Source: Acidimicrobiales bacterium
GTDB taxonomy: Bacteria > Actinomycetota > Acidimicrobiia > Acidimicrobiales > CADCSY01
DNA length: 64,000 nt
Assembly (NCBI GenBank): GCA_030446545.1
Contig: JAUJNB010000012.1
Coordinates: 8,913-72,912, forward strand
Direction of reading: 5' to 3'
In this document: piece by piece, positions 7,372-31,742 of the stretch
Numbering within the stretch: position 1 is the first letter of the stretch
Layout of the letters: each line of letters opens with the position of its first letter
Made by a program: the position numbers and the translations under genes
The notes under the pieces: model-generated
Database searches by the model: none
Seen by the model: only the letters and a program-made list of their open reading frames with translations
What the model was told of the DNA's origin: nothing

Positions 7372-7469
7372 CGCCGGCGGGGTGGGGGTGGGGGTGGGTG
7401 AGGATCCAACACGTCGCCTCTCACCGTACTGTCCGGGAGGCGGACCCCGCCGGGCCGACTTGGCGGAAC

Positions 7470-12918: not shown

Positions 12919-13232
12919 GGGATGTGAGGGTACGACCTCCCGGCAGGCACCGGGGCGCCACGCGAACGAGCCGCCCGGGGGAAGGGCGGCTCGCTCTCAG
13001 GGGGATTGGTTAGGTGGGACCGGTCGGCTGCAGCGACAGGGCGGGGTCGCCACCACAGCCGTTCCGGTCTCACCTTGTACAGCAACTATCGGCAGGCGCC
13101 GGCTACACCTTGAGCACTTTCTCCGGATTTCTTTTCCGACCGCTCGAGCTCTCTTGACCGGGGATCGACCTGGCGACCACGGGAACGTGGCCTCGGCCAC
13201 CTCCATCGGCCCGGCCCGGCGCCGCCGGTACC

Positions 13233-14627: not shown

Positions 14628-14666
14628 CCTGGGCGCCGCTGGGCCCCTGCCGACAGATCAGCGACC

Positions 14667-14694
14667 GTTCACAGCGGCGAAACAGAGCCGAAAC
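14667..14694 (+). promoter_or_regulatory. Candidate GlnR-type operator (a-site n6 b-site n6 b-site) upstream of amtB
   Basis: GTTCAC-agcggc-GAAAC-agagcc-GAAAC, 47 nt upstream of the amtB start. It has 11-bp phasing and matches the Streptomyces GlnR box pattern gTnAc-n6-GaAAc. Confidence 0.45.
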
Positions 14695-14740
14695 GTCCTG
14701 GCGGCAGCCTGTCGGCGGCAAGTGACCCCGAGACGGGAGT

Positions 14741-16012
14741 GTGGGCATGGACAGCGGCGATACCGCCTGGATGTTGACCTCGACCGCCCTGGTGCTCTTC
14801 ATGACGCCGGGGCTGGCGCTGTTCTACGGAGGCATGGTCCGTTCCAAGCACGTGCTGGGGATGCTCATGCAGAACTTCGCCGCCATGGGCCTGATCGCGG
14901 TGTTGTGGGCGCTGGTCGGGTTCTCCCTGGCCTTCGGCGACTTCGGCAACGGCGGCGTCCTCGGCAACCTCGACTTCCTCGGCCTCGCCGGCGTGGGCAT
15001 CGAGCCGGGGTTGGAGCTGACGATTCCCTTCGTGCTCTTCGCTGCCTACCAGATGACCTTCGCCGTCATCACCCCTGCCCTCATCACCGGGGCCACCGCC
15101 GACCGCATGAAGTTCAGCGCCTACCTGGTGTTCATCGGGGCCTGGTTGGTCCTGGTCTACGCCCCCGTGGCCCACTGGGTCTTCGCCGGGGGCTGGCTGG
15201 CCAGCCTGGGCGCCCTCGACTTCGCCGGCGGCGCCGTGGTCCACATGAACGCCGGGGCCGCCGCCCTCGGGGTGATCCTGGTGCTGGGGCCGCGCCGGGG
15301 CTGGCGCAGCGAGGCCATGCCGCCCCACTCGCTGCCCCTGACCATGCTCGGTACCGGCATCTTGTGGTTCGGCTGGTTCGGTTTCAACGCCGGCTCGGCC
15401 CTGGCCGCCAACGGCGTGGCCGCCCAGGCGGTCATGAACACCTTCCTCGCCGCCTCGGCCGCCATGTTGACCTGGATGCTGGTCGAGCGGATCAAAGACG
15501 GCCACGCCACCACGCTGGGGGCGGCGTCGGGCGTGGTGGCCGGCCTGGTCGCCATCACCCCGTGCGCCGGCTTCGTCGGGGGGATGAGCCCCATCCTCAT
15601 CGGAGGCGCTGCCGGCGTCGTCTGCGTGCTGGCCATCGGCCTCAAGAACCGCTTCGGCTACGACGACTCGCTCGACGTCATCGGCATCCACCTGGTCGGC
15701 GGGCTCCTCGGGTCGGTCGTGCTCGGCCTCTTCGCCGACAGCGCCGTCAACGAGGTGGCCACCGACGGGCTGTTCCTCGGGGCGGGGCCGGCCTGCTGGT
15801 CGACCAGATCGTGGCCAGCGTCGCCGTGCTCGCCTTCTCACTGGTCGTGTCCGCCGCCCTGGCCAAGGTGATCGACGCCACCATGGGCCTGCGCATCAGC
15901 GCCGACCAGGAGCTCGAGGGCCTCGACCGCAGCCAGCACGCCGAGACCGCCTACATCCTCAGCGACCTCGGTTCCTCCTCGGGGCCCCGGTCACCCACCA
16001 GGGCCAGGGTGA
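14741..16012 (+). CDS. amtB: Ammonium transporter (one or more apparent frameshifts near 15790, 3' end uncertain)
   Basis: DTAWMLTSTALVLFMTPGLALFYGGMVR, AVITPALITGATADR, DFAGGAVVHMNAGAAAL, WFGWFGFNAGSA and GIHLVGGLLGS are all Amt signatures. Confidence 0.9.
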
Positions 16013-16029
16013 GCCCACCCGGGTGGGCT
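16012..16029. terminator. Palindromic hairpin between the convergent amtB and 4-Cys mini-ORF
   Basis: AGCCCACCCGGGTGGGCT is a perfect 18-nt palindrome lying just past both convergent gene ends. Confidence 0.5.
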
Positions 16030-16035
16030 AGCGCC

Positions 16036-19022
<2,987 letters not shown>

Positions 19023-19057
19023 CAGACGAGCTTCGCTCGTCGGTAGGCTCGCTCGCC

Positions 19058-19884
19058 GTGTCCAAGGCCCGCCAGCGCCAGAAGCAGAAGGCGCGTCGCA
19101 CCCGTCGTGACCACGGGCTGCGGGAGGAGGCAGCGGCCGCCAGCCGGCCCCGCCGGCGGATGGGCCGGGCGCTCGTGGGCGTGATCGGCGTCATCGGCAT
19201 CCTCTTCCTCGGCGTGCTGGGCAGCCTGGTCGGCCAGGATGCCCGCCAGGACAGCGCCCAGGACCAGGCGGTCGCCACGGACTCGACGGCCCCCGATACC
19301 ACCCGACCGGGGCCCCCGGCCCGCCGCCGCCCTGCCCGGCGCCCGACGGCTCGTCGCCCCGCCGCACCCTCTTTCGACGCGGCACCGGCCATGTGCATCG
19401 ACCCGGCGGCGCAGTACCGGGCCCGCTTCGTCACCTCGGCCGGGGTCTTCATCGCCGACCTCGATCAGCAGCGCTCGCCCCTGGCGGTCAACAACTTCGT
19501 GTTCCTGGCCCGTTACCACTTCTACGACGGCCTGGCCTTTCCCACCGTGATCCGCGACGCCTACGCCCAGACCGGCGACCCTGTCGCCCCGACCTGGTGG
19601 GGCCCGGCTACACCTTCCCCGACGACCCGCTGCCCCCTGCCGGCACCTACCAGGTGGGCTCCCTCGTCGTCGCCCACGAGCGACCCGACGACAACGGGAG
19701 CCAGTTCCTCATCCTCCTGGGGCCCCAGGGGGTCGAGCTGCCCCCCGTCTTCCCGCTGTTCGGCCAGGTCACCCAAGGCCTCGACGTGCTGGCCCGCATC
19801 GGGGCCGCCGGGGGCACGACGGCCGACCCGTCACCGGAGGACCCCCCCACCATCGAGCGCATCGACATCATCGAGACGCCGTAG
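19058..19884 (+). CDS. Membrane-anchored cyclophilin-type peptidyl-prolyl isomerase (apparent frameshift near 19590)
   Basis: Basic N-terminus plus TM LVGVIGVIGILFLGVLGSLV. Cyclophilin motifs NNFVFLARYHFYDGLAF..VIRDAYAQTGDP..GPGYTFPDD..GSQFLILLG. Confidence 0.85.
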
Positions 19885-19889
19885 CGCGG

Positions 19890-19927
19890 CCGACAGGCCG
19901 TCGAGCGCAGCGAGCTTGGCCTGTCGG
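19890..19927 (+). terminator. Hairpin downstream of the PPIase gene
   Basis: CCGACAGGCC ..18 nt.. GGCCTGTCGG, a 10-bp perfect stem 6 nt after the stop. Confidence 0.5.
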
Positions 19928-20149
19928 GGCCAAGTAGCAGGGCCGCCGAAGGTGGATCGATGCCATGGTGATGGTTGACATCCCGCCTTCGCACCAGTAG
20001 ACCGGCACGGTTCGTTGGGCGAGCTCTCCCGCGCGGGCGGGCGGCGCAACGGACGTGGGGCAGGTGCCACCGGGATGGTGGACAGCGGCCCCGAACGGCA
20101 AAATCAACAGCAAGAACCAACCTATCCCTACGAGTACACATGAGAGGAG

Positions 20150-23100
20150 GTGAAATTGGTGAAGAGTAAAGATGACATGGGGGGCGCCCGAAAGGGCACC
20201 GCGATGGGGCTGGCGGCAACGGCAGTCTCCGTGGTGCTTGTGATGCTCTTCGGCGGAACCGCGTCTGCACAGACGACGACCACCGAGCCGGCACCACGGC
20301 GACCCCCGAGACCACACCTGCAGCGACCAACGCCTCTGACGGTGGTGGAAGCGCGGACACCGGCGACGCCGGTGCCACAGGCAACGAGACAGGAACCACG
20401 GTCAACCAGACGGCCCCGCCCACGAAGATGTGTGGGACCGGTGGCTGCGTCGTGATCGTCGACCAGGACGCAGACGTTTCCAACAGCGGGAGCGCCTCGG
20501 CCACCACGGGCGGCAACACGGCGACCGGCAACGCCAGCGACAACACGGCGACCGGTGAGGCCAGACCGCAACCTCGGGTTCGGGCACGGGGTCGGGCGTG
20601 AGCAACAACACGGCCGGCACCTCCAACACGTCGGACGGCAGTGCCGGCATCACGACCGGCCCGGCCACGGCGACGGGGAACCACTCCACCACGACGATCA
20701 ATCAGATCGCCGACGTGGAGATCTCCGACGAGGACTGCGGTGGTAGGTGCCTTGGTGGCGTAGTGCTCATCAACCAGGGCGCGGACGTCTCCAACACCGG
20801 AGATGCCACCGCGACCACGGGTGACAACACCGCTACCGGCAACACCAGCGACAACGACGCTTCGACGTCCCAGGACAACGAAGCCGACGGTTCTGACGAC
20901 GGCGATGCCATCGCCAGCAACAACGGCACGGCCAGCAACTCGTCCGACGGCGAGGCCAGCATCAACACTGGCGACGCCGACGCGACGGGCAACCGGTCGA
21001 CCACCAACGTCAACCAGATTGCCAACGTCTCTATGGCCGGCAGCCTGGGTGGCGTCGTGTTGATCAACCAGGGCGCGAACGTCTCCAACTCGGGGACGGC
21101 AACCGCCGACACTGGTGGCAACACGGCCATGGGCAACGAGTCGAACAACGACTCGAACACAGTGCAGGGTGCGGTCTCTGGAGCCGGTCCACCTGATGGC
21201 GACGCCATCGCCACCAACGACGGACAGGCACACAACTCGTCCGACGGCAGCGCCGACATCACAACTGGCGACGCCACCGCGACGGGAAACCACTCTGAAA
21301 CCAACATCACCCAGTCGGCAGACGTCGACATGAACGGCGGCATCGCCCTGATCGACCAGGACAGCGATGTCGAGAACAGCGGTTCGGCGAGCGCGGACAC
21401 CGGTGACAACGAAGCCACCGGCAACGACTCCGAGAACGACGCTGACAGCGAGCAGGACGCCGATGCTGACGCCGATGACGGCGACAACACGGTTGCGGCC
21501 AACTTCGGGCTGGCGGAGAACGCCAGCGACGGGTCGGCCGAGATCACCACGGGAGACGCCGACGCCACCGGCAACGCGGCGACCACGAACATCGCCCAGA
21601 CCGCTGACGTCGAGGGTGCCCATTCGCCCTCATCGACCAGGACAGCGACGTGGACAACCACGGCGACGCCGAGGCCGACACCGGTGACAACGAAGCCACC
21701 GGCAACGACTCGGACAACGACGCTGACAACGACCAGGAAGCCGACGCCGACGCAGACGACGCCGACGGCTCCAGCGTGGCCAGCAACTTCGGTGAAGCCA
21801 GCAACGACTCCGACGGCACGGCCACCATCCATTCCGGTGACGCCACCGCCACGGGGAACGACTCCACCACCAACGTCCTCCAGGAGGCCGATGTGGACGG
21901 CGGTTCCTTCGCTCTGATCGAGCAGGACACCGACGTCGACAACGAGGGTGACGCTGACGCCGACACCGGCGACAACGAAGCCACCGGCAACGACTCCGAC
22001 AACGAGGCCGACAACGACCAGGACGCCGATTCCGGTGACGGCGAGGACAACAGCGTCGCCGCCAACTTCGGCTCGGTCACCAACTCCAGTGACGGCACCG
22101 CCGACATCACCACCGGTGATGCCACGGCGACCGGCAACGCCGCCGACGACAACGTGGCCCAGGTGGTCAACGTCGAAGGCGGTGACGACGACGACTTCGG
22201 CTTCGTGCTCGTCGAGCAGGACGTCGACATCGACAACGAGGGCGACGCTGACGCCGACACCGGCGACAACGAAGCCACCGGCAACCGCTCGGACAACGAG
22301 GCGGACAACGACCAGGAAGCCGACGCTGGCGACAGCGACGGCAACACGGTCGCCACCAACTTCGCCAGCACTGCAACCAACGGCCACCATCGAGACCGGT
22401 GACGCCACTGCTGTCGGCGTCGACGCATCGACATCGTGCAGGTGGTCAACGCCGAGACCGGTGACGGCTCGAGCGACGACGACCAACGTCGGCTGCACGG
22501 TGCGTCAACAGCGACACTGCGACGACGGCAACGGCTTCGGTGCTCTCATCGAGCAGGACGCCGACATGGACAACGACGGTGAGGCCAAGGCCAAGACCGG
22601 CGGCAACGACGCCACCGGCAACAGCTCCGACAACGACGTCGGCCACCAACGACCAGGACGCCGACGCTGATGACAGCGACGGCAACCTGATCGTCACCAA
22701 CGACGCCGGTCAGACCGAGCAACGACTCCGACGGCTCCGCCACCATCGAGACCGGTGACGCGCCACCATCGAGACCGGTGGCCCACGCCGTGGGCGTCGA
22801 CGCCAACACCAACATCGGCCAGTTGGCTTCGGCCGACATCGAGGATGACGGCTTCGTCATCTCCGATCAGGACGTCGACGTCGACAACGACGGTGACGCC
22901 GAGGCCGACACCGGTGACAACGACGCCACCGGCAACACCTCGGACAACGACGCTGACAACGACCAGGACGCCGACGCCGAAGACGGCGACGGCGACACGG
23001 TCGTGACCAACGACGCCACGACCAGCAACGACTCCGACGGCACCGCCACCATCGACACCGGTGATGCGCAGGCCGTGGGCGTCGAAGCCAACACCAACAT

Positions 23101-25459
23101 CGGCCAGTTGGCTTCGGCCGACATCGAGGATGACGGCTTCGTCATCACCGATCAGGACGCCGACGTGAAGAACGACGGCGACGCCGAGGCCGACTCCGGC
23201 GACAACGACGCCGTGGGCAACGAGTCGGACAACGACGCTGACAACGACCAGGACGCCGACGCCGAAGACGGCGACGGCGACACGGTCGTCGTCAACAACA
23301 ACGCCACCACCAGCAACAACTCCGATGGCACCGCCAGCATCACGACCGACTGCGCATGCGCCATCGGCGTGCACGCCAACACCAACATCGGCCAGGTCGC
23401 CAATGGCGACATCGAGGGTGACGGCTTCGTCATCTCCGATCAGGACGCCAACGTCGAGAACGACGGTGACGCTGAGGCCGACTCCGGCAACAACGACGCC
23501 GTGGGCAACGAGTCGGACAACGACGCTGACAACGACCAGGACGCCGACGCCGAAGACGGCGACGGCGACACGGTCGTGACCAACAGCGCCGACACCAGCA
23601 ACGACTCCGACGGCACGGCGACCATCGACACCGGTGACGCCACGGCCTTCGGTGTGGTGGCTGACACCAACATCGTCCAGTCGGTCTCGGCCGACATCGA
23701 GGGTGACGGCTTGCGACAGCGTCATCACCGATCAGGACGCCAAGGTGAAGAACGACGGTGACGCCAGGGCCAACTCCGGCCGCAACGACGCCGTGGGCAA
23801 CGAGTCGGACAACGACGCTCGGACAACGACCAGGACGCCGACGCCGAAGACGGCGACGGCGACACGGTGGTGAGCAACAACGCCGACACCAGCAACGACT
23901 CCGACGGCACCGCCGAGATCACCACCGGTGATGCGGCTGCGGTCGGGGTTCTCGCCGAACACCAGACATCGATCAGTCGGTCTCGGCCGACATCGAGGAT
24001 GACGGCTTCGTCATCTCCGACCAGGACGCCGACGTCGAAGAACGACGGTGACGCCGTGGCCGACACCGGTGACAACGACGCCACCGGCAACAAGTCGGAC
24101 AACGACGCTGACAACCGCCAGGACGCCGACGCCGAAGACGGCGACGGCGACACGGTGGTGACCAACAACGCCGACACCAGCAACGACTCCGACGGCAAGG
24201 CGACCATCGACACCGGTGACGCCACCGCCTTCGGTGTGGTCGCTGACACCGACATCGACCAGTCGGTCTCGGCCGACATCGAGGATGACGGCTTTCGTCA
24301 TCACCGATCAGGACGCCAAGGTGAAGAACGACGGCGACGCCAGGGCCAACTCCGGCCGCAACGACGCTGTGGGCAACAAGTCGGACAACGACGCTGACAA
24401 CGACCAGGACGCCGACGCCGAAGACGGCGATGACGCCGACACCGGCGACAACACGCCAACAACGCCGACACGCCAGCAACGCCAGCTCCGACGCCGAAGA
24501 TGGCGACCGAGATCACCATCGGTGATGCGGCTGCGGTCGCTGAGATCTCACCGGTGAAGGCGGCACTCGCCGACATCGATCAGTCGGTCTCGGCCGACAT
24601 CGAGGATGACGGCTTCGTCATCACCGATCAGGACGCCAAGGTGAAGAACGACGGTGACGCCGTGGCCAAGTCCGGTGACAACGACGCCGTGGGCAACAAG
24701 TCGGACAACGACGCTGACAACGACCAGGACGCCGACGCCGAAGACGGCGACGACGACACGGTGGTCAGCAACAACGCCGACACCAGCAACGACTCCGACG
24801 GCAAGGCGACCATCGACACCGGTGACGCCACGGCCTTCGGTGTGGTCGCCGACACCGACATCGACCAGTCGGTCGACGGCCGACATCGAGGACGACGGCT
24901 TCGGCTTCGTCATCACCGACCAGGACGCCAAGGTGAAGAACGACGGCGACGCCAGGGCCGACACCGGCCGCAACGACGCACCGGCAACAAGTCGGACAAC
25001 GACGCTGACAACCGCCAGGACGCCGACGCCGAAGACGGCGATGGCGACACGGTGGTCAGCAACAACGCCGACACCAGCAACGACTCCGACGGTTCGGCCG
25101 ACATCAAGACCGGGTCCGCCAATGCCATTGGCATTGGTGGCCGCGACGGTGTCGACCTTCCCGAGATCCCTGACCTCTGCGAGGACAAGGATGACAAGGA
25201 CAAGCCGGACGAGGGCGACAAGCCCAAGCCCGACGAGGGCGACAAGCCCAAGCCCGACGAGGGCGACAAGCCCAAGCCCGACGACGGCGACAAGGACCGG
25301 AAGCCTCCGGCCAAGCCCGTGGTCGAGAAGTTCAAAGACGTGAAGGTCAAGGCTCCGGCCCTGGCCGTCACCGGCGTCTCGGTTGCGGTCCAGGTGCTTC
25401 TTGGACTGCTGCTGCTCGCCCTTGGCCTCTTCCTTCGCCGGAAGGGTCAGGCGGCGTAG
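20150..25459 (+). CDS. Giant (~1,770 aa) poly-acidic tandem-repeat cell-surface protein with a signal peptide and a C-terminal LAVTG sortase sorting signal. Multiple apparent frameshifts and small duplications.
   Basis: GAGGAGG RBS. Signal peptide MGLAATAVSVVLVMLFGGTASAQ. About 16 repeat units. C-terminal (DEGDKPKP)x3 stalk at 25208-25279, then LAVTG, a 20-aa hydrophobic helix and RRKG. Frames 20150-20455, 20598-21917, 21650-22402, 22778-23761, 23867-24397 and 24500-25459 all read the same repeat. Confidence 0.8.
20440..25110 (+). repeat. Coding tandem array of about 16 units of ~285 bp (95 aa). The units from 22.8 to 25.1 kb are near-identical.
   Basis: The string gacatcgagga(t/g)gacggcttcgtcatc recurs at about 22837, 23122, 23407, 23693, 23986, 24268, 24597 and 24882, mostly 285 bp apart. 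More diverged units (..LINQGA(D/N)VSN.., ..LIDQDSDV(E/D)N..) run back to about 20445. Confidence 0.9.
25361..25456 (+). other. Cell-wall sorting signal (LAVTG, hydrophobic helix, RRKG tail)
   Basis: Codons ctg gcc gtc acc ggc at 25361-25375, followed by VSVAVQVLLGLLLLALGLFL and RRKGQAA. Confidence 0.8.
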
Positions 25460-25473
25460 TTTCAGCGCCGTTT

Positions 25474-25507
25474 GAAGGAGGGGGTGGCTTCGGCCGCCCC
25501 CTCTTTC
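25474..25507 (+). terminator. Strong stem-loop terminator after the repeat-protein gene
   Basis: GAAGGAGGGGGTGGC-TTCG-GCCGCCCCCTCTTTC, a 15-bp stem (two G-U pairs) with a UUCG tetraloop, 15 nt after the stop. Confidence 0.7.
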
Positions 25508-25556
25508 GCGTCCGGGGTCCGTGTGGGACCGGGGGCGGCTGCACTACAGTGTCCCG

Positions 25557-26354
25557 ATGACCGAGAACTCTGCGGAACTCTCCACGCCCTCCGTCAGACG
25601 CGGCGGGTCACGGCGGCCGGCGTCGGCCGACCAGGAGCGACTCGTCCGCCGTTACCTCAGCGCCCTGGAGGTCAACAAGGCCGGTCGAGGCGTCAAGCGG
25701 GCGGCGGACGCCGTGGGCAATCGGATCACCAAGGTCGACGAGCTCCTGGTGTCGGCCGATCCCCTCAGCCGGGTGCACCTGACCCAGGAGCGCATCGAGC
25801 TGCACGCCGAGTACGTGCGCATCACCAACGGGAACCACCCCGACCAGGGTCAACTCGAGCGTGACTTCATCCGGGTGGTGCGTAGCTATGGCGACCGCAA
25901 CGGGATCACCTACGCGGCCTGGCGCCAGGTCGGGGTGGACGCCAAGGTGCTCGAGCAGGCCGGGATCCAACGGGCGGACAAGAAGCCGCCGCCGGCCGCC
26001 CTGCGAGCCGCAGAGTCGGCCTTGGCCGAGTCCTCGGCCCCACCGCCGGGCGAGGCCCCTCCGTCGACCGACGAGACCGCCGAGTCGACGGAAGCCCCGG
26101 GAACGGCTCTCAACGGCTCCGTGCCCTCGGCGATCGTTCCCGGCCGGACCACGACGCCAGACGACCCGCCCACTCCGCCTCCGAGCGAGGTGGACCTCGA
26201 CGAGCTGGCCGACCTGTTGGCCGAAGCCAGCCCCGGCGCGCCGGCGCCGGCGAAGGACGGCTCGGCTCAACCCCCGCTGAGCGAAGACCTCGGCCCGGTG
26301 AGCGGGCTCGTCGCCAACCGACCCAGCCGAAGCCCGGAGGCCGCCGGCTCCTGA
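25557..26354 (+). CDS. Hypothetical protein with a structured N-terminal half and a Pro/Ala/Glu-rich disordered C-terminal half
   Basis: Intact ORF. I prefer the internal ATG (MTENSAEL) at 25557. A segment GITYAAWRQVGVDAKVLEQAGIQR resembles conserved actinobacterial hypothetical proteins as I recall them. No function can be assigned. Confidence 0.5.
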   Translation: MTENSAELSTPSVRRGGSRRPASADQERLVRRYLSALEVNKAGRGVKRAADAVGNRITKVDELLVSADPLSRVHLTQERIELHAEYVRITNGNHPDQGQLERDFIRVVRSYGDRNGITYAAWRQVGVDAKVLEQAGIQRADKKPPPAALRAAESALAESSAPPPGEAPPSTDETAESTEAPGTALNGSVPSAIVPGRTTTPDDPPTPPPSEVDLDELADLLAEASPGAPAPAKDGSAQPPLSEDLGPVSGLVANRPSRSPEAAGS

Positions 26355-26473
26355 CCCAGGCCGGGACACCGCACGCCCGCAAGGGCCCGCTCCGGCCCGA
26401 ACGCGGGTGACGGGGTGGTGGGTCACGGCTCAGGGCCGACGTCAGTGAACCGGCACTAGCTAGCCTCACCCTG

Positions 26474-27133
26474 GTGGAGCCAGCCCTCGGCCCGGCACAT
26501 GACCTGTTGCGCTGGAGCGAGGCGTTGGCCGGCATCGCTCGGACCGGGCTCGGCTTCACCGCCAACCTCTACGAACGGGAACGGTTCGAGGAGGTGTTGA
26601 AGGTGGCGGCCGAGATGCAGGCGGCGGCAACCTCTCCGTCACCCTCCGCCGCCAACCTCGTGCAGGAGTGGATGGCGACCGTGGGTGAAGGCGTGGCCGG
26701 CTACGTCACCCCCAAGGCGGCGGTGGGCGCCGTCGTGGGCAATGACCGGGCCGAGATCCTCCTGGTCCAGCGGGCCGACTCGGGGGTGTGGCTCTATCCC
26801 ACCGGGTGGGCCGACATCGGATATTCCCCCGCCGAGGTGGCGGTCAAGGAGGTGGCGGAGGAGACGGGGATCCATTGCCGCCCGGAGCGGCTGATCGCCG
26901 TGCTCGACGGTCTGCGCCTGGGGTTCTCCCGCATCCCGCTCTATTCCCTGGTCTTCCACTGCCGGTTGGTGGGCGGCGAGCTACGGGCCCACCCCCTCGA
27001 GTGCGCGGACGTGGGGTGGTTCGCCGAGGACGCGCTCCCTGTGCCCATGGCCGGAGCGGCCCGCTGGGCGCCCGTCGCCTTTGCCGCCATCCGGGGCGAG
27101 CCCGTCGACGTCGTCTTCGACGCCCCCCGCTGA
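26474..27133 (+). CDS. NUDIX hydrolase with an N-terminal helical extension
   Basis: Intact 219 aa. Nudix box GWADIGYSPAEVAVKEVAEETG (GX5EX7REUXEEXGU-like). Confidence 0.85.
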   Translation: MEPALGPAHDLLRWSEALAGIARTGLGFTANLYERERFEEVLKVAAEMQAAATSPSPSAANLVQEWMATVGEGVAGYVTPKAAVGAVVGNDRAEILLVQRADSGVWLYPTGWADIGYSPAEVAVKEVAEETGIHCRPERLIAVLDGLRLGFSRIPLYSLVFHCRLVGGELRAHPLECADVGWFAEDALPVPMAGAARWAPVAFAAIRGEPVDVVFDAPR

Positions 27134-27147
27134 CCACGGGAGGTCGA

Positions 27148-27627
27148 TCAGGCGGGAGGCGAGGCCAGTTGCTCGAGCAGGGCGGACACGATGGAGATCC
27201 GACCGCCGGCCGCCTCCCAGCGCAGGGCGATGGCCTGATGGTCGACCAGCCCGGCGGTCTCGGGGGCCATGCCGAGCGCGGTGGTGGCCGCGGCCGCCAG
27301 GGGGACCGGTTCCAGTGACTCCCCGTAGGCGCTGAACGCCTCCAGCCCGTCCCACAGAGCCGCGGGAGCCGCCGGGGGCTCACCGTCGCCGGCCAGGGCC
27401 AGGGCCACGGCGGCGAAGAGCTCGTAGGTGGGGGTGGACGGCGGGCGCCGGAACCCGGCGACGGGATGGAGTCGCCACTCGAGCGCCTGGCCGCCCGGCC
27501 CGTCGTCCCGGAGCCAGACCTGCGACCCGTTCACGTAAGCGTCGACGGGCTCGCCGAAGCGCCGATCGAGGGCCAACACCAATTCGGCGCTGATGGGCCA
27601 GATGCAGGTGGCCACCAGGTCGGGCAT
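27148..27627 (-). CDS. Hypothetical protein
   Basis: Intact 159-aa ORF with coding-like GC3. No recognisable motif. Confidence 0.4.
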   Translation of the reverse strand: MPDLVATCIWPISAELVLALDRRFGEPVDAYVNGSQVWLRDDGPGGQALEWRLHPVAGFRRPPSTPTYELFAAVALALAGDGEPPAAPAALWDGLEAFSAYGESLEPVPLAAAATTALGMAPETAGLVDHQAIALRWEAAGGRISIVSALLEQLASPPA

Positions 27628-27767
27628 TGCTCGACGGTAGAGGGAGCGGTGGAATGAGACGAACTCCGCCCGCAGGGCGGACGGGCAGAGCCAACACGGG
27701 CTCAGGGCGGAGGGGCGCAGGCGGACGGGCCCAGGGCGAACCTGGCCCAGGGCGACCGGCTGGCAGG

Positions 27768-29222
27768 ATGCACCGGGTGCGTCGCCTGCTTCCCATCCTC
27801 GCGGCCGGGGCGCTCTGGGTTGGTGCCTGTAGCGGCGACGGGCCCGGGCCCACGGGCCGGGCCGACGGCCCGTCTCCGGCCGGCCCGTCGGGATCCGCGG
27901 GCCCGCCGGTCACCACCACCACCACACTGTCGCCCCTGCCTCTCGGCCCGGCCCAGCCCGCCACCGACAGCTGCCCGGCAGTACCGGGCCAGACCGCCCC
28001 CGACCCCGATCGACCCCGCTACACCATGTCGGTGCGGGTGCTCCCCGGCGAGGCCGCGGTGGAGGGACGACTGACCGTGCGCTTCCGTCCCGACCTGGCC
28101 ACCGACCGTCTGGTGTTCCGGCTCTGGCCCAACGGGCCCCGCCCCGCCGCCGCCGGCGCCCACCTCGAGGTCGGACCGGTCTTCCTCGGTGCTCCCGTCC
28201 CCGTCCCCACCGACCGGCCCGACCCCACCACCCTGGTCGTTCCCCTCGAGTCGGGACTCGGCGCTGGTGACCTGATCGAGGCCACCATGCCCTGGCGCCT
28301 GTCGCTCCCGGGGAATTCCGACGACCGCCTGGCTCATTCCGGCGACGCCATCCGGCTGGGCTCGTTCTTCCCGGTCCTGGCCTGGGAGCCGGGTGTGGGC
28401 TGGGCCACCGACCCGCCGACGGCCGGCTTGGCCGAGACCTCCATGGCGCCGGTGGCCGACTTCGCCTACTCGGTGACGGTGCCCGACGGCCTCGACGTGC
28501 TGGCCTCGGGCGTGCGGGAAGGGAGCCGGTGGCGGGCCGCGGCCACCCGGGACATCGCCATCTCCATCGGCCGGTTCCGCACCGCCGAGGCCGAGGCCCG
28601 CGCCCCTGGTCCGGTGGCGGTGACCGTCGGGGTCCACGAGAGCCTCGACGAGGATCCCGAGGCCTACCTGACCAAGGTGGTGGACGCTCTGGAGGACTTC
28701 GCCCGACGGTTCGGGCCCCATCCCTACCCCACCTACACCCTGGCCCTGACCCCGGGCCTGTCGGGTGGGGTCGAGTACCCGGGTCACGTCATGCAGGGAC
28801 CGGGGACGCTGGCTCGCACCACCTCCCACGAAGTGGCCCACCAGTGGTTCTACTCCCTGGTCGGCAACCACCAGGGCCGCGACCCCTGGCTGGACGAGGG
28901 CCTGGCCACCTGGGCCGAGGCCCGCTTCGAGAACTCGCTCGACCGGATCGTCGACCGGTCCGTACCCAGCGTGGGCCGGGACCAGGTGGGCCGACCCATG
29001 GCCTTCTGGGACGACCACCCGGCGGCCTACTACCGGTCGGTCTACGTCCAGGGTGCCCAGGCCCTGGCCGCGCTGGGCGACGCCGACGGGGTCGACTGCG
29101 CCCTCCGCCACTACGTCGCCACCCAGGCCTTCGCCGTGGCCCGCCCCGAGCACCTGCGCTCGGCACTGGAGGTGCGCTTCGCCGACGCCGGAGCCACCCT
29201 GGCCGCCTTCGGGGCCGTCTGA
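27768..29222 (+). CDS. M1-family zinc metallopeptidase, lipoprotein
   Basis: Start MHRVRRLLPILAAGALWVGAC (lipobox VGAC). HEXXH-X18-E motif: TSHEVAHQWFYSLVGNHQGRDPWLDEGLATW. Intact. Confidence 0.85.
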   Translation: MHRVRRLLPILAAGALWVGACSGDGPGPTGRADGPSPAGPSGSAGPPVTTTTTLSPLPLGPAQPATDSCPAVPGQTAPDPDRPRYTMSVRVLPGEAAVEGRLTVRFRPDLATDRLVFRLWPNGPRPAAAGAHLEVGPVFLGAPVPVPTDRPDPTTLVVPLESGLGAGDLIEATMPWRLSLPGNSDDRLAHSGDAIRLGSFFPVLAWEPGVGWATDPPTAGLAETSMAPVADFAYSVTVPDGLDVLASGVREGSRWRAAATRDIAISIGRFRTAEAEARAPGPVAVTVGVHESLDEDPEAYLTKVVDALEDFARRFGPHPYPTYTLALTPGLSGGVEYPGHVMQGPGTLARTTSHEVAHQWFYSLVGNHQGRDPWLDEGLATWAEARFENSLDRIVDRSVPSVGRDQVGRPMAFWDDHPAAYYRSVYVQGAQALAALGDADGVDCALRHYVATQAFAVARPEHLRSALEVRFADAGATLAAFGAV

Positions 29223-29376
29223 CCGTCCTGTCGCCGGCACGGAAGGGTGGCTCATTGGCCGGGTGGTAGCGGCTCCCAGGCGGGCCGGAGGAGCCTTGGC
29301 CCCCCAGTCCGACCGCAGGTGGTAAGCCGAGCCGCCGCCTCTCGGGCCCCCGGAGCCGTCGACGGCGTCGAGGAGG

Positions 29377-30015
29377 TCAGGCCCCGGCCGGTGCCGCCGG
29401 CACCAGGCCGCAGGCGGCCCGGGCCCCGGCGTCGCCGGTGCTGTTGGTCATGTCGTCGGGGCCGGGCTGGCCGGCGTCGGCGGCGGTGTAGCGGTCGGGG
29501 ATGTTGGCGAAGTTGTCGGGGCTGGCGTGGATCATCACGGCCGCCCCATCGCCTTCGGCCAGCTCTTCCAGGGTGAAGGTGTCGAGGTCGACGGTCAGGC
29601 GGGCGGTCCCGTCGCTGGCGACAGGAAGGCTGGGCATGTCGCCGTCGTGGTCACCGTGGGAGCCGCCCCCGCCCACGAAGTGGCCCTTGGCCGTGGTGAA
29701 GGGACCATCGGGGGCGTCGGCCTCGCACAGCCCGACATCGTGCACGTGGAACCCGTGGAATCCCGGATCCAGGCCCTCGAGACGAGCGCTGACGCGGACC
29801 CCGCCGTCGCGGGCCGAGAGGGTGACCGTGCCCACGTCGTTGCCTTCGGCGTCGGTCATGGCCACTTCGGTCCCCTCCCCTTCTTCTTCCTCGTGCTCAT
29901 CGGGGGAGGAGACGTCGGTCGTCTCGGGCGAGGCCTGATCGGAGTCACCGGCGCAGCCGACCACGGTGAGGGCGGCCAGGGCCAGGGCGGCCAGCGGAAG
30001 CGGGGGTTGGCGCAT
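29377..30015 (-). CDS. sodC: Cu/Zn superoxide dismutase, lipoprotein
   Basis: Lipobox LTVVGC. FHGFHVHDVGLC..HFVGGGGSHGDHDGDMPSL..AAVMIHASPDN are typical SodC metal ligand stretches. Intact. Confidence 0.9.
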   Translation of the reverse strand: MRQPPLPLAALALAALTVVGCAGDSDQASPETTDVSSPDEHEEEEGEGTEVAMTDAEGNDVGTVTLSARDGGVRVSARLEGLDPGFHGFHVHDVGLCEADAPDGPFTTAKGHFVGGGGSHGDHDGDMPSLPVASDGTARLTVDLDTFTLEELAEGDGAAVMIHASPDNFANIPDRYTAADAGQPGPDDMTNSTGDAGARAACGLVPAAPAGA

Positions 30016-30046
30016 GGTGCCACCGTAGCCGGTCGGCGCCAGGCGG

Positions 30047-30889
30047 TCAGTCCGGCGACCGGTTGCGCAGGAAGCGCTCGACCTCCTCGGCCAGCGAGGC
30101 GGTGGAAGCCCCTTCGTCGCGATCGAAACGCTCTTCGAGGGTCTCGAGGTAGCCGGTCATCTCCTCGTCCTCGGCCACGATCTCACTGACCTGACGCTCG
30201 TAGGCGGCCGCCGCGATCTCCAGGTCGGTGACGACGGTGGGGACGCCCACCAGCTCGGCGGTGTGTTCCACCAGGGCCAGCGCCGCTTTGGGGGAGGGAG
30301 CGCCAGGGACGTAGGCGGGGACGGCCGCCCACAGCGACGCTCCGGCCAACCCGGCGCGGCGACAGGCGTCGCCCAGCACCCCCACGATGCCGGTCGGGCC
30401 CTCGTACCTCGAAGGGGTCAGCTCCAAGCGTTGCACGATGGCCGGGTCGGCAGCCGTTCCCACCACCGAGGTGGGGCGGGAATGGGGCACCTCGGCCAGC
30501 AGGGCGCCGAGGGTGAGCACCAGGCGGGCATCGATCGAGTGGGCCACGTCGACGATCTGGGCGCAGAAGCGGCGCCAGTGCAGTTGGGGCTCGGTGCCCA
30601 CGAGGACGACCACGTCGGTACCCGACGTGGTCCCCCAGGTGAAGATGTTCGCCGGCCATTCGATGACCCGGTCCCCTTCGTCGTCGAGGTGGACCCGCGG
30701 TCGGGTGGTGGTGAAGTCGAAGAACTCCTCGGCGTCGATCTCGGCCAGGGGCTCGGGCGCCCATCGGTCGGCGAGCCACTGGGCGGCGAGGCTGGCGGCG
30801 TCGCCGGCGTCGTTCCAACCCTCGAAGGCGGCGATGAGCACCGGACGAACGAGTGGGGGTCGTTCGCCGTCGATCCAACGGAGGTCCAT
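30047..30889 (-). CDS. PAC2-family (proteasome assembly chaperone-like) protein
   Basis: From the internal ATG: MDLRWIDGERPPLVRPVLIAAFEGWNDAGDAAS..VVVLVGTEPQLHWRRF..YEGPTGIVGVL, typical of actinobacterial PAC2 family proteins. Confidence 0.75.
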   Translation of the reverse strand: MDLRWIDGERPPLVRPVLIAAFEGWNDAGDAASLAAQWLADRWAPEPLAEIDAEEFFDFTTTRPRVHLDDEGDRVIEWPANIFTWGTTSGTDVVVLVGTEPQLHWRRFCAQIVDVAHSIDARLVLTLGALLAEVPHSRPTSVVGTAADPAIVQRLELTPSRYEGPTGIVGVLGDACRRAGLAGASLWAAVPAYVPGAPSPKAALALVEHTAELVGVPTVVTDLEIAAAAYERQVSEIVAEDEEMTGYLETLEERFDRDEGASTASLAEEVERFLRNRSPD

Positions 30890-31043
30890 GGCGTCGAGGG
30901 TATTGACGAGTTGGCCGGGCCACGACGGGCACGGAGACGGGCCGGAGGGGCAAGGCGGCCGCAGGGAGGACGGGGGCGGCAGGGAGGACGGGGCGCCAGG
31001 GACGGTAGCCTCGTGGGGGGTGGCCCGTTCCTCCCCGGCGTCG

Positions 31044-31697
31044 ATGCCCGACGCCATGCTCGACATCCTCACGGCGGCCCGACCCCGGCTGCGGGGCCGG
31101 CTCCACCAGGTCGTGTTCTTCCTCAGCATCCCTGCCGGCGTGGCCGTGGTGCTCGCCACCCGGGCTGGCCCGGCCCGCATCGGGGCGGTGGTCTACGCCC
31201 TCAGCCTGACCGGCCTGTTCGCCACCAGCGCGGCCTACCACCGCCTGGCCCAGTCGGTCCCGGCCCGCATGTGGATGCGTCGGCTGGACCACGCCATGAT
31301 CTTCGTGCTCATCGCCGGCACCTACACCCCGCTCTGCCTCCTGGCTCTCGACGGTGCCTGGCGGGTCGTGTCGTTGTGCGTGGTGTGGGTGGTGGCGCTG
31401 ATCGGTGTGGGACTCAAGGTCTTCCGACTCGAGGCCATGCGCCTGGGCAACTCGCTGTACCTGGTCCTTGGTTGGGCGGTGGTGGTGCTCGTTCCCCAGC
31501 TTGTCGGACGCCCCCTGGTCCTGGGCCTCATGGCGGCCGGAGGTGGCCTGTTCACCGGAGGCACGGTGGTGCTGACGCGGCGCCGGCCCGACCCGGTGCC
31601 AGAGGTCTTCGGCTACCACGAGGTGTGGCACTGTCTGGTGGTGGCGGCCTGCGCCTGCCACTACGCCATGATCATGGTGCTGGTGCGCTCCCCGTAG
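31044..31697 (+). CDS. Hemolysin-III / PAQR-family membrane protein
   Basis: Seven hydrophobic segments with the family motifs SAAYH, RRLDHAMIFVLIAGTYTP and FGYHEVWHCLV. Confidence 0.85.
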   Translation: MPDAMLDILTAARPRLRGRLHQVVFFLSIPAGVAVVLATRAGPARIGAVVYALSLTGLFATSAAYHRLAQSVPARMWMRRLDHAMIFVLIAGTYTPLCLLALDGAWRVVSLCVVWVVALIGVGLKVFRLEAMRLGNSLYLVLGWAVVVLVPQLVGRPLVLGLMAAGGGLFTGGTVVLTRRRPDPVPEVFGYHEVWHCLVVAACACHYAMIMVLVRSP

Positions 31698-31742
31698 GAG
31701 CCTTCTCCTACACTCCCACCGACCACGATCACGAGGAGGCCG

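What the first reader, a model, noticed from the sequence alone, without database searches (positions are those of the whole stretch)
20150..25459. Giant poly-acidic tandem-repeat, LAxTG-anchored surface protein with a Gly/Asn-ladder repeat I cannot place in a named family
**What the sequence shows.** The gene has a strong RBS and a Sec signal peptide (..VLVMLFGGTASAQ). It then runs for ~1,770 codons built from about 16 units of ~95 aa (285 bp). Each unit contains four parts:
- A short hydrophobic strand ((F/L)(V/A)(L/I)I(D/E/N)Q(D/G)).
- The motif xDVxNxGxAxAxTGxNxAxGNxSxN.
- A pure-acid spacer (DNDQDADAEDGDGD).
- A second related motif SNDSDGxAxIxTGDAxAxG(N/V)xxxTNIxQ.

Several units contain DxDxDG (DVDNDG), a classical Ca2+-loop pattern. 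The C-terminus is a (DEGDKPKP)x3 stalk, then LAVTG, a TM helix and RRKG.

**Inference.**
- The alternating small-residue, Gly and Asn pattern with a terminal Gln recalls curli (S-x5-Q-x-G-x-G-N-x-A-x3-Q) and Fap-type amyloid repeats and suggests a beta-solenoid.
- The extreme negative charge suggests a cation-binding fibre or adhesin covalently attached to peptidoglycan.
- I do not recognise the repeat as any described domain.
Basis: partly seen in the sequence, partly recalled or inferred. Interest (0 to 1): 0.7.

Follow-up and report, generated by a model that had tools for sequence, protein, structure and literature searches.

The report
Acidic wall-anchored repeat protein, unnamed family
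A soil actinobacterium encodes a giant, extremely acidic cell-wall-anchored protein built from 17 copies of a repeat found in no domain database; the gene is real and transcribed, but in this window it is broken by about 22 sequencing-type frameshifts, and it is not related to curli.

Summary
The repeat gene is real, but the window does not hold it as one ORF. The repeat-bearing frame changes about 22 times between 20150 and 25459.

These breaks are consensus errors:
- The flanking glnD and cyclophilin genes carry the same density of 1-2-nt indels.
- Independent short-read contigs restore the frame at 9 or more predicted sites.
- A 96-98% identical short-read MAG keeps the gene open for 1,250 codons.

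The product is about 1,770 aa: a Sec signal peptide, 17 units of 96 aa (each two related 48-aa halves), a KP/DE stalk and an LAVTG-TM-RRKG sorting signal.

It belongs to an unnamed family of 432 clusters, all from Acidimicrobiia/Actinomycetota metagenomes, with no Pfam, NCBIfam or PDB match. It sits at the family's acidic extreme (24.5% D+E, net charge about -376). Asp fills the variable alternate positions and leaves the N/G/A/T/Q framework intact.

Covariation shows antiparallel pairing of the half-repeats, not curli-type parallel stacking. DxDxDG occurs at chance frequency. The gene is transcribed in biocrust metatranscriptomes and follows a membrane-anchored cyclophilin gene in 6 of 7 loci.

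Best reading: an all-beta polyanionic rod carrying a class-E-type sortase signal and displayed on the cell wall. Cation, water or mineral binding is inferred, not tested.

The parts
19058..19884 (+). Upstream cyclophilin-type PPIase gene with an N-terminal TM helix. It is frameshifted in the window and intact in L005.
   Evidence: Pfam PF00160 is split over two frames. It reads in a single frame in L005. Indels lie at 19308, 19372 and 19586. The cyclophilin->repeat-gene pair is conserved in L003-L007.
20142..20153 (+). Shine-Dalgarno sequence GAGAGGAGGTGA
   Evidence: Read directly from the sequence.
20150..20269 (+). Start region and Sec signal peptide (MKLVKSKDDMGGARKGTAMGLAATAVSVVLVMLFGGTASA|Q). 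The start is probably TTG 20156 or GTG 20159.
   Evidence: The same N-terminus is found in L005, L006 and L007.
20270..20448 (+). Thr/Pro-rich linker plus a partial first half-repeat. It contains a frameshift at about 20286.
   Evidence: +A at 20285.
20449..22849 (+). Units 1-8, the more diverged part of the array, progressively acidified. Frame breaks lie at about 20558, 21623 and 22371-22781.
   Evidence: Unit HMM map; Viterbi stitching; indels against L005.
21165..21194 (+). Once-per-protein motif QGAVSGAGPP, in the spacer of unit 3.
   Evidence: It is conserved in P0073, P0074, P0019, P0050, L005, L006 and L007.
22371..22545 (+). Garbled stretch. L005 and the short-read contigs have a Cys-rich insert here (CDRNDRGCNGCDRGCNGCGNGCNG).
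   Evidence: Many small deletions against L005. The loose end at 22480 reads TGCGACCGGAACGACCGCGGCTGCAACGGC.
22760..22780 (+). 21-nt local duplication (GCGCCACCATCGAGACCGGTG) that is absent from L005.
22850..25138 (+). Units 9-16.5: near-identical, highly acidic units from recent tandem amplification. Frame breaks lie at about 23715, 23819, 23965, 24038, 24294, 24455-24509, 24879 and 24980.
   Evidence: TRF period 288, 82% matches; DNA alignment of the units.
23348..23371 (+). CxC motif DCACAIGV in unit 10.
   Evidence: The equivalent TGCACAVGN is in P0073 and L005.
23707..23720 (+). Junction where relatives carry a second Cys-rich insert (WNGCDRKGCDRGWNGCDSGDCGDCDG) that the window lacks.
   Evidence: Loose ends at 23708 in X1-X3, X15 and X19; L005 translation.
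24449..24542 (+). Scrambled stretch with no support in independent data. Probably an assembly artefact.
   Evidence: Depth is 0 in X1, X2 and X3. The alignment of unit 14 is aberrant.
25139..25360 (+). Pro/Lys/Asp/Glu stalk, including (DEGDKPKP)x3 at 25208-25279.
   Evidence: (period 24, 4.2 copies). A variant stalk is present in X2.
25361..25459 (+). Cell-wall sorting signal: LAVTG (25361-25375), hydrophobic helix (25376-25435), RRKG (25436-25447), then the stop codon.
   Evidence: LAXTG is the class E sortase signal (PMC5148588).

Best explanation
The locus is a genuine, expressed gene for a very large, sortase-anchored surface protein. It founds, or belongs to, an undescribed repeat family of Acidimicrobiia-type Actinomycetota. 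The frameshifts in the window are consensus errors.

Proposed mechanism:
1. The protein is exported by Sec and the signal peptide is cut after TASA.
2. A class E sortase cleaves LAVT|G and links the protein to peptidoglycan. The Pro/Lys/Asp/Glu stalk spans the wall.
3. The 17 tandem 96-aa units fold into a long all-beta rod. Each unit is two homologous 48-aa halves that pair antiparallel with each other and with the next unit, with tight bends at the invariant TG and GN.
4. One face of every strand is the conserved small-residue framework (N, G, A, S, T, Q), presumably buried. The other face is variable.
5. In this lineage the variable face has been filled almost entirely with Asp, and the acidic unit has been amplified in tandem. 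The result is a rod of roughly 15-35 nm carrying about 380 net negative charges.
6. I propose that it acts as a polyanionic coat that binds divalent cations and water and/or mineral surfaces in soil and biocrust.
7. The adjacent membrane-anchored cyclophilin may help it fold outside the cell.

Shown: the gene is real, intact in relatives and transcribed; the export and sorting signals; the repeat anatomy; the antiparallel covariation; the placement of the acidic residues.

Inferred: the rod dimensions, burial of the conserved face, wall attachment, cation/water/mineral binding, and the cyclophilin link.
For: GENE REAL AND INTACT
- L005 is open for 1,250 codons; L006 and L007 are open to their contig ends; L008 is a complete ORF.
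- Intact giants of 1,611-1,905 aa exist in the family.
- Frame-restoring indels appear in independent runs.
- The flanking housekeeping genes show an equal indel density.

TRANSCRIBED
- Metatranscriptome contig depth on the gene is 5-58, against <=1.7 upstream and <=2.7 downstream.

EXPORT AND ANCHORING
- Signal peptide and tripartite LAVTG signal.
- 88 of 211 family proteins end in L[AP]xTG plus a basic tail.
- LAXTG is the class E sortase signal in soil Actinobacteria (PMC5148588).

FOLDED BETA REPEAT
- Many framework positions are 90-99% conserved over 1,152 units.
- AlphaFold gives an all-beta model with 14-20-residue strands, pLDDT 64.
- The eight top DCA couplings are all on the anti-diagonal with sum 93-96, scoring 2.4-4.6 against a shuffled-control maximum of 1.69. 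The inter-unit coupling 76-115 is the strongest.

ACID ON THE VARIABLE FACE
- D/E occupy 36% of variable columns and 6% of conserved columns.
- D+E is 24.5% against a family median of 7.2%.

RECENT AMPLIFICATION
- Eight copies at 82% DNA identity.

CYCLOPHILIN SYNTENY
- 6 of 7 giant loci.
Against: - No experimental datum exists for any family member.
- Structure models have only moderate to low confidence (pLDDT 64 and 50). The poly-Asp spacers fall below 50.
- There is no significant structural neighbour, so the tertiary arrangement is unresolved: a single-layer meander or a two-layer stack of arches.
- DCA on repeats is confounded by concerted evolution (the i/i+96 echo), and Meff is only about 360-500.
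- No sortase gene was found in the window (motif scan).
- No recognised Ca2+-binding motif is present.
- Contig depth is a poor measure of expression, and the RNA contigs are only 92-97% identical, so they come from related strains.
- The true unit number and the 3' sequence are not established.
Confidence: 0.55

Rival explanations
1. It is a functional amyloid of the curli/Fap type. The Gly/Asn/Gln repeats form a parallel in-register beta-solenoid that polymerises into extracellular fibres.
For: - The period-2 pattern of small residues with Asn, Gly and Gln resembles the style of curli.
- Every top Foldseek hit is a beta-helix or solenoid, including FapC and CsgA, though none is significant.
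- Streptomyces long chaplins show that proteins anchored through LAXTG can be amyloidogenic (PMC5148588).
Against: - No Curlin repeat or any other Pfam hit.
- The family profile finds no PDB sequence at E<=10, although the PDB holds CsgA and FapC chains (those chains appear).
- hhalign against CsgA gives probability 0.09%.
- DCA gives antiparallel A-B pairing and no i/i+46-49 couplings in the top 40.
- The protein is one covalently anchored chain of 17 units, not a secreted small subunit with a nucleator.
- A net charge of about -376 would oppose self-association unless cations bridge it.
Confidence: 0.1
2. It is mostly an intrinsically disordered acidic stalk or brush, like the Ser-Asp repeats of staphylococcal Sdr/Clf proteins. 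It would work only through charge and length, as electrostatic spacing, anti-fouling or a barrier to phages and particles, without a defined fold.
For: - The only weak library hits are to the SD-repeat regions of ClfA and SdrC.
- AlphaFold gives pLDDT below 50 for the poly-Asp spacers, and 50 overall for the most acidic units.
- Composition is extreme, with 20% Asp.
Against: - Framework residues are 90-99% conserved across 1,152 units, which is not expected for a disordered spacer.
- Strong anti-diagonal covariation is present.
- Acid residues avoid the framework columns.
- Neutral relatives share the same framework.
- There is no N-terminal ligand-binding domain for a stalk to present.
- The NCBIfam scores are 9-17 bits against cut-offs of 1150-1700.
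Confidence: 0.15
3. It is a decaying pseudogene. The roughly 22 frameshifts are real mutations and no full-length protein is made in this strain.
For: - No continuous ORF exists in the window.
- Some lesions are not simple homopolymer errors: a 21-nt duplication and a scrambled 24449-24542.
Against: - The essential-type neighbours glnD, amt and cyclophilin carry the same indel density.
- Independent runs at 50-63% word share contradict the window at the predicted sites and restore the frame.
- The 96-98% identical MAG has an open frame of 1,250 codons.
- The scrambled stretch has zero read support.
- The gene is transcribed above its neighbours.
Confidence: 0.04
4. It is a structural coat or sheath component, S-layer-like, whose main job is mechanical or a permeability barrier. 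On this view acidity is a secondary adaptation, and the small neutral paralogues of 3-5 units are the typical form.
For: - The family median is 4 units and median D+E is 7%.
- Many members are about 400 aa with LARTG or LPRTG tails.
- RNA signal is high.
- The context of the small members is not conserved, as expected for housekeeping surface proteins.
Against: - Nothing shows lattice formation.
- The giant cyclophilin-linked subfamily is distinct from the small members.
- This reading partly overlaps the best explanation rather than excluding it.
Confidence: 0.15

Closest known systems
Long chaplins ChpA-C of Streptomyces coelicolor (class E sortase substrates)
   Same: Actinobacterial secreted proteins with a C-terminal LAXTG sorting signal. 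SrtE attaches them to the wall, and they form beta-rich surface structures (PMC5148588).
   Different: There is no chaplin (DUF320) domain, since Pfam gives 0 hits. Chaplins are small and hydrophobic with one or two domains. This protein is about 1,770 aa, has 17 units and is hyper-acidic.
Curli subunit CsgA (Curlin repeat) and FapC functional amyloids
   Same: Imperfect tandem repeats with a period-2 pattern of Ser, Asn, Gln, Gly and Ala, all-beta, and a fibrous extracellular product.
   Different: No sequence or profile similarity and no significant fold match. The repeat is 48/96 aa rather than 19-23 aa. Covariation indicates antiparallel, not parallel in-register, stacking. It is one covalently anchored chain in a monoderm, not a secreted subunit with a nucleator and an outer-membrane channel.
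Ser-Asp repeat MSCRAMMs (ClfA, SdrC/D/E) of staphylococci
   Same: Sortase-anchored, very acidic, highly repetitive, with repeat number liable to tandem expansion. The acidic region lies between the functional part and the wall.
   Different: The NCBIfam scores are noise, at 9-17 bits against cut-offs of 1150-1700. There is no A-domain or B-repeats. The acidic residues here sit on a conserved folded framework rather than in a dipeptide repeat.
Rod-like repeat stalks such as SasG/Aap (G5-E repeats)
   Same: LPXTG-anchored proteins in which tandem beta-rich repeats build a long thin rod projecting from the wall. This comparison rests on general knowledge and was not tested here.
   Different: No G5 or E-repeat match in Pfam. 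The repeat architecture and composition are different.

Membership tests
Sortase-dependent cell-wall-anchored proteins (LPXTG/LAXTG) | N-terminal Sec-type signal peptide | tested here: met
   The basic n-region, the hydrophobic core AATAVSVVLVMLFGG and the TASA|Q site are read from the sequence. They are conserved in L005-L007. No dedicated predictor was available.
Sortase-dependent cell-wall-anchored proteins (LPXTG/LAXTG) | C-terminal tripartite sorting signal: L[PA]xTG, a hydrophobic stretch of about 20 residues, and a basic tail | tested here: met
   LAVTG at 25361-25375, VSVAVQVLLGLLLLALGLFL at 25376-25435 and RRKG at 25436-25447. 88 of 211 relatives have the same layout.
Sortase-dependent cell-wall-anchored proteins (LPXTG/LAXTG) | Ala at P3, the class E sortase signal | tested here: met
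   The motif is LAVTG. LAXTG is assigned to class E sortases in PMC5148588. The family mixes LAxTG and LPxTG.
Sortase-dependent cell-wall-anchored proteins (LPXTG/LAXTG) | A cognate sortase encoded in the genome | tested here: inconclusive
   A six-frame scan for the TLxTC-type active-site motif found nothing in the 64-kb window. The rest of the genome was not available, and the scan is weak in indel-ridden sequence.
Sortase-dependent cell-wall-anchored proteins (LPXTG/LAXTG) | Covalent linkage to peptidoglycan | not testable with these tools
   This needs cell-wall fractionation and mass spectrometry.
Curli (CsgA, Curlin repeat) | Match to the Curlin repeat or CsgA sequence profile | tested here: not met
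   Pfam-A gives 0 hits at E<=1. The family profile against PDB sequences gives 0 hits at E<=10. hhalign against E. coli CsgA, a sequence supplied from memory, gives probability 0.09%.
Curli (CsgA, Curlin repeat) | Parallel in-register beta-solenoid stacking of successive repeats | tested here: not met
   DCA gives no i/i+46-49 couplings in the top 40, and the eight strongest couplings are antiparallel A-B pairs. Foldseek against CsgA 8c50 gives E=1.8 and TM 0.05. Caveat: this is covariation evidence only, not a structure.
Curli (CsgA, Curlin repeat) | Dedicated nucleator and secretion partners (CsgB, CsgE/F/G) and an outer membrane | not tested
   The window was not searched systematically for these genes. 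The protein carries a sortase signal typical of monoderms instead.
Fap functional amyloid (FapC) | Sequence or fold similarity to FapC | tested here: not met
   Foldseek against 9u4u_A gives E=0.24 and TM 0.07/0.12. There is no PDB sequence hit.
Ca2+-binding repeat families (EF-hand-like DxDxDG, TSP type 3, RTX nonapeptide) | Match to the family profile, or enrichment of the DxDxDG loop | tested here: not met
   There are no Pfam hits. D.D.DG occurs twice, against 1.65 +/- 1.24 expected by composition. The pattern arises from Asp at the variable positions around the conserved N-x-G. This does not exclude non-canonical cation binding.
Ser-Asp repeat MSCRAMMs (ClfA/SdrC) | Score above the NCBIfam cut-off, and presence of the A domain | tested here: not met
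   Scores are 8.7-17.2 bits against cut-offs of 1150-1700, and the matches fall only on low-complexity regions.
Chaplins (DUF320) | Chaplin domain | tested here: not met
   No Pfam hit in the window pieces or in six relatives.
Unnamed Acidimicrobiia N/G-framework repeat family (defined here) | 96-aa unit of two halves with the conserved Q..V.N.G.A.A(N)TG.N.A.GN.S.N.A...Q and N.S.G.A.I.TG.A.A.GN.S.T.V.Q framework | tested here: met
   17 units in the window protein match the family HMM. 72 homologues were found in the first word-indexed search and 432 representative clusters in the exhaustive search.

The most novel reading that the evidence does not exclude
The 96-aa unit defines a new fibrous beta fold. 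Half-repeats, possibly as arches, stack in an antiparallel meander around a dry Asn/Gly/Ala/Ser/Thr/Gln core. The fold is specific to Acidimicrobiia-type Actinomycetota, and its exposed face is free to evolve. In this biocrust lineage that face has become a near-pure poly-Asp surface on a 15-35 nm wall-anchored rod. The rod would act as a dedicated Ca2+/Mg2+ and water store or a mineral-binding organiser, helping desiccation tolerance or carbonate and particle adhesion in soil crusts. A co-conserved extracytoplasmic cyclophilin would serve as its folding helper.
Probability: 0.2. Interest if true: 0.75.

Novelty: new variant of a known kind. Interest (0 to 1): 0.5.

Why it matters
Sortase-anchored repeat proteins are a well-known kind. 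This repeat, however, is absent from Pfam, NCBIfam and the PDB, yet it forms at least 432 sequence clusters in soil Acidimicrobiia and related Actinomycetota. That group is abundant, largely uncultured and has an essentially unstudied cell surface.

The family offers a conserved beta framework with a freely evolving exposed face. The window's protein is the extreme case, with a rod carrying about 380 negative charges. It is transcribed in biocrusts well above its neighbours. If the polyanionic face binds cations, water or minerals, it bears on how crust bacteria survive drying and stick to particles. The fold itself would be a new model of an antiparallel cross-beta-like fibre.

In practical terms, the case shows that the apparent pseudogene is an artefact of indel-rich consensus sequence. 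Repeat number here cannot be trusted.

Tried and rejected
- Pfam-A and NCBIfam scans of four intact pieces and of six relatives gave nothing usable.
- Family-profile searches of PDB sequences with two alignments gave 0 hits at E<=10.
- Foldseek of model 1 against the PDB gave no hit with E<0.1 and TM <=0.12. The list is dominated by beta-helices, which I treat as a hint only.
- The second AlphaFold job used the most acidic units with an in-register three-unit alignment. It gave pLDDT 50, too low to search with. Model coordinates are not exposed, so parallel versus antiparallel topology could not be read from the models. I used DCA instead.
- The look-up of encoding contigs for the window's own C-terminal ORF found nothing on record.
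A single-protein query worked.
- The context of small family members is not conserved.
- The promoter scan found no sigma-70-type site, and there is no plus-strand terminator after the gene.
- The sortase active-site motif scan of the window found nothing.
- Two literature searches found nothing on this family.
- I rejected pseudogenisation and a locus-specific frameshifting mechanism, because the indels are equally dense in glnD and cyclophilin and are absent from independent data.

Full report
1. IS THE OBSERVATION THERE?

- A strong Shine-Dalgarno sequence, GAGAGGAGGTGA, lies at 20142-20153. It overlaps the proposed GTG at 20150. The in-frame TTG at 20156 or GTG at 20159 is therefore the more likely start, two or three codons downstream.
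- The N-terminus is a typical Sec signal peptide ending TASA|Q.
- Tandem Repeats Finder reports a 288-nt period with 8 copies at 82% matches over 22761-25092.
- A repeat HMM searched in all three frames finds about 16.5-17 units of about 96 aa between 20449 and 25138.
- The C-terminus reads ...(DEGDKPKP)x3...APALAVTG-VSVAVQVLLGLLLLALGLFL-RRKGQAA*.

What is not there is a continuous ORF. No ORF spans 20150-25459. The repeat-bearing frame changes about 22 times. The longest intact stretches are 20598-21590, 21620-22369 and 22778-23695.

2. ARE THE FRAMESHIFTS BIOLOGY OR ERROR?

They are error. Four lines of evidence agree.

(a) The neighbours are broken as well. The cyclophilin domain is split over two frames. 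The GlnD HD and ACT domains lie in different frames. Only the last 59 residues of the ammonium transporter are in frame. A GC3 frame plot shows frequent frame switches.

(b) Contigs of four independent soil-metagenome runs hold 51-63% of the locus' 31-mers. They carry indels relative to the window at the places where I had predicted frame changes: 20285 (+A), 20557 (+C), 21623 (+G), 22425 (+CAGA), 23820 (-2), 23959-23962 (+4), 24039 (-1) and 24293 (-1). They also carry indels at 19308, 19372 and 19586 in the cyclophilin gene, and at 12976, 13640, 14117, 15778, 15976 and 18784 further upstream. The scrambled stretch 24449-24542 has zero depth in all three runs tested.

(c) A short-read MAG contig is 96% identical in protein and 95.8-98.4% in DNA. 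This is L005, 'Actinomycetota bacterium 0707_bin13'. It has an intact 810-aa GlnD and an intact cyclophilin. Its repeat gene is open for 1,250 codons, from the same start to the end of the contig.

(d) Against L005 the window has 16 frame-breaking indels in 3.65 kb of housekeeping flank, about one per 230 nt. The density inside the repeat gene is similar.

The 84% and 80% relatives L006 and L007 are likewise open to their contig ends. L008, at 51% identity, is a complete 1,422-aa ORF ending SLPRTG-TM-RRK.

L005 and the short-read loose ends also reveal two Cys-rich inserts that the window garbles (22371-22545) or lacks (about 23707). They are CDRNDRGCNGCDRGCNGCGNGCNG and WNGCDRKGCDRGWNGCDSGDCGDCDG. 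The gene is therefore real and almost certainly intact. The window's unit number and its 3' sequence cannot be trusted.

3. WHAT FAMILY IS IT?

Pfam-A finds nothing at E<=1. NCBIfam finds only low-complexity noise, 9-17 bits to the SD-repeat parts of ClfA and SdrC, plus a weak match of the tail to a LAXTG model.

A word-indexed search found 72 homologues, and a second search with an alignment found 60. An exhaustive HMM search of 1.84 billion representatives found 432 clusters at E<=0.001, of which 160 are at E<=1e-30.

All of them come from metagenomes or MAGs labelled Acidimicrobiales, Actinomycetota or Actinobacteria. None has a Pfam domain. The only names given are 'hypothetical protein' or, twice, 'LPXTG-motif cell wall-anchored protein'.

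Members share one architecture: a signal peptide, then repeats, then L[AP]xTG, a TM helix and a basic tail. That tail is recognisable in 88 of 211 sequences, most often as LARTG or LPRTG. The median protein has 4 units. The window protein has 17 and the maximum is 18. Intact giants of 1,611-1,905 aa exist. Two literature searches found nothing on the family.

4. ANATOMY OF THE REPEAT

Over 1,152 units the consensus is a 96-aa unit made of two homologous halves:
- Half A: Q5 . A . V9 . N11 . G13 . A15 . A17 N T19 G20 . N22 . A24 . G26 N27 . S29 . N31 . A33 ... Q37
- Half B: N50 . G ... N56 . S58 . G60 . A62 . I64 . T66 G67 . A69 . A71 . G73 N74 . S76 . T78 . V80 . Q82

Many of these positions are 90-99% conserved. 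Conserved positions alternate with variable ones, and the phase shifts at TG and at GN.

Two idiosyncratic features are shared with distant giants. One is a once-per-protein QGA(V/T)SGAGPP motif, at window 21165-21194. The other is a CxC motif, DCACAIGV at 23348-23371, matching TGCACAVGN in P0073.

5. ACIDITY

The stitched protein is 24.5% Asp+Glu (20% Asp) and 3.2% Lys+Arg, a net charge of about -376. The family median is 7.2% Asp+Glu, the 95th percentile is 18.9% and the maximum is 24.8%.

In the window and L005 units, Asp/Glu occupy 36% of the variable columns (family: 14%) but only 6% of the conserved columns (family: 4%). Half A reads Q-D-A-D-V-D-N-D-G-D-A-E-A-D-T-G-D-N-D-A-T-G-N-E-S-D-N-D-A-D-N-D-Q-D-A-D. 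One face is the framework and the other is poly-Asp.

The 3' units are about 82% identical at the DNA level. The acidic unit has therefore been amplified recently.

6. FOLD

AlphaFold2 on three less acidic units, using a 44-sequence alignment, gives an all-beta model with 14-20-residue strands joined by short turns. Its mean pLDDT is 64 and pTM is 0.42. On the most acidic units it gives pLDDT 50: the conserved hairpins reach 60-76 and the poly-Asp spacers fall below 50.

Foldseek against the PDB finds nothing significant. The best E is 0.18 and TM is <=0.12. The list is nonetheless dominated by beta-helices, with FapC at E 0.24 and CsgA at E 1.8. hhalign of the family profile against E. coli CsgA, a sequence supplied from memory, gives probability 0.09%.

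- On 532 near-complete units (Meff about 504), the eight strongest couplings all lie on one anti-diagonal, with i+j = 93-96. They are 26-69, 31-63, 19-76, 9-85, 26-67, 11-83, 11-85 and 5-89.
- Their scores are 2.4-4.6, against a maximum of 1.69 in a column-shuffled control.
- No coupling has i/i+46-49.
- A weaker tier (15-28, 15-24, 65-78) indicates local bends at the TG motifs.
- On 371 double units the same pairs recur between unit n and unit n+1, and the strongest is 76-115. An i/i+96 echo also appears, which I attribute to concerted evolution of neighbouring repeats.

Half A therefore pairs antiparallel with half B, across the acidic spacer within a unit and across the unit boundary to the next unit. 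This agrees with the confident hairpins of the AlphaFold models.

It remains unresolved whether the TG-centred turns are hydrogen-bonded hairpins or arches. Hairpins would give a single-layer meander with four strands per unit, about 33 nm for 17 units. Arches would pack the conserved faces together in two layers, about 16 nm. Neither arrangement is the parallel in-register solenoid of curli or Fap.

7. CONTEXT AND EXPRESSION

In the window, L005, L006 and L007 the gene order is glnD, cyclophilin, repeat gene. In the loci of the intact giants P0074 (on a 4.1-Mb contig) and P0073, a cyclophilin gene also lies immediately upstream on the same strand. L008 is the exception.

The cyclophilin has a basic N-terminus followed by a TM helix. 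Its catalytic domain is therefore probably outside the membrane. Small family members sit in unrelated contexts. There are no further copies of the repeat in the window.

In two biocrust metatranscriptomes, contig depth is 5-15 and 9-58 over 20671-24005. It is <=1.7 over the 8 kb upstream and <=2.7 downstream. The RNA contigs are 92-97% identical to the window and have no gaps where the window's frame is intact. Contig depth is a crude measure and the RNA comes from related strains. Even so, the gene is clearly transcribed in situ, and well above its neighbours.

8. MECHANISM

Shown:
- An exported protein with a canonical tripartite sorting signal whose LAxTG core is the class E sortase signal of soil Actinobacteria (PMC5148588).
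- A mature part made only of the repeat array plus a Pro/Lys/Asp/Glu stalk.
- A conserved framework with antiparallel covariation.
- Acid on the variable face.
- Recent amplification of the acidic unit.
- Transcription in situ.

Inferred:
- A class E sortase links the protein to peptidoglycan.
- The stalk crosses the wall.
- The array forms a rigid beta rod of about 15-35 nm whose conserved face is buried and whose exposed face is polyanionic.
- The rod binds divalent cations and water and/or mineral surfaces.
- The cyclophilin assists folding, for instance at the rare GPP motif or the KP stalk.

I put about 0.9 on 'a real, intact, expressed gene' and about 0.8 on 'a wall-anchored surface protein'. 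I put about 0.6 on 'an antiparallel beta rod' and about 0.35 on the cation, water or mineral function.

9. RIVALS

- A curli/Fap-type amyloid is disfavoured by every test run.
- A purely disordered acidic brush conflicts with the framework conservation and the covariation.
- A pseudogene is contradicted by independent data.
- A general structural coat overlaps with the best explanation and is not excluded.

10. NOVELTY

The kind of protein, a sortase-anchored tandem-repeat surface protein, is known. The repeat domain is undescribed and the polyanionic giant is an extreme variant of it. I rate it a new variant of a known kind, of moderate interest.

Noticed in passing
window 12000-25500 versus 25530-32000: There is a sharp discontinuity at the 3' end of the repeat gene. 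To the left, short-read contigs are short, very deep (about 200-600 in X1, 1000-2600 in X3) and differ from the window by many 1-nt indels. To the right, contigs are long (up to 2,770 nt), match with 0 gaps, and are 5-60 times shallower. Either the contig is a strain mosaic or chimera at about 25.5 kb, or the abundant strain has a different downstream region.
   Followed up: partly
window 14599-19022: An ammonium transporter and glnD (PII uridylyltransferase) nitrogen-regulation cluster lies upstream. All of it is broken by single-base indels in the window. glnD is an intact 810-aa ORF in L005.
   Followed up: partly
L005 about 5900-6000 and 7350-7480, corresponding to window 22371-22545 and about 23707: Two Cys-rich inserts, CDRNDRGCNGCDRGCNGCGNGCNG and WNGCDRKGCDRGWNGCDSGDCGDCDG, lie between repeat units in the close relative and in the short-read and RNA contigs. 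They may be metal- or disulfide-bearing knots. The window garbles the first and lacks the second.
   Followed up: partly
window 21165-21194; also P0073, P0074, P0019, P0050, L005-L007: A QGA(V/T)SGAGPP motif occurs once per protein, replacing the spacer of one early unit. It is conserved across distant family members. It is one of the very few Pro-containing sites and a candidate processing or PPIase site.
   Followed up: no
window 19058-19884; L003 8886-9677; L004 222-938; L006 2649-3461; L007 2673-3482: A cyclophilin gene with an N-terminal TM helix lies immediately upstream of the giant repeat gene in 6 of 7 loci, although the wider neighbourhood differs between them.
   Followed up: yes
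window 46186-47241 (+) and the following ORF to about 48101: A lower-GC stretch (66%) encodes a protein whose C-terminus matches Pfam Ntox17 (E=8e-7), a polymorphic-toxin domain. An acidic ORF with no family match follows it and could be the immunity partner.
   Followed up: partly
window 25521-26354 (+): The first gene downstream is a 277-aa Pro/Ala-rich ORF with no Pfam match. A NUDIX hydrolase follows at 26474-27133.
   Followed up: partly
L002 (ENA ERZ25039550 contig_63000): The contig carrying the acidic relative P0014 also shows split genes: gamma-glutamyl transpeptidase and ClpB each lie in two pieces. P0014 lacks a signal peptide. That assembly seems to be indel-rich too, and P0014 is probably N-terminally truncated.
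   Followed up: no
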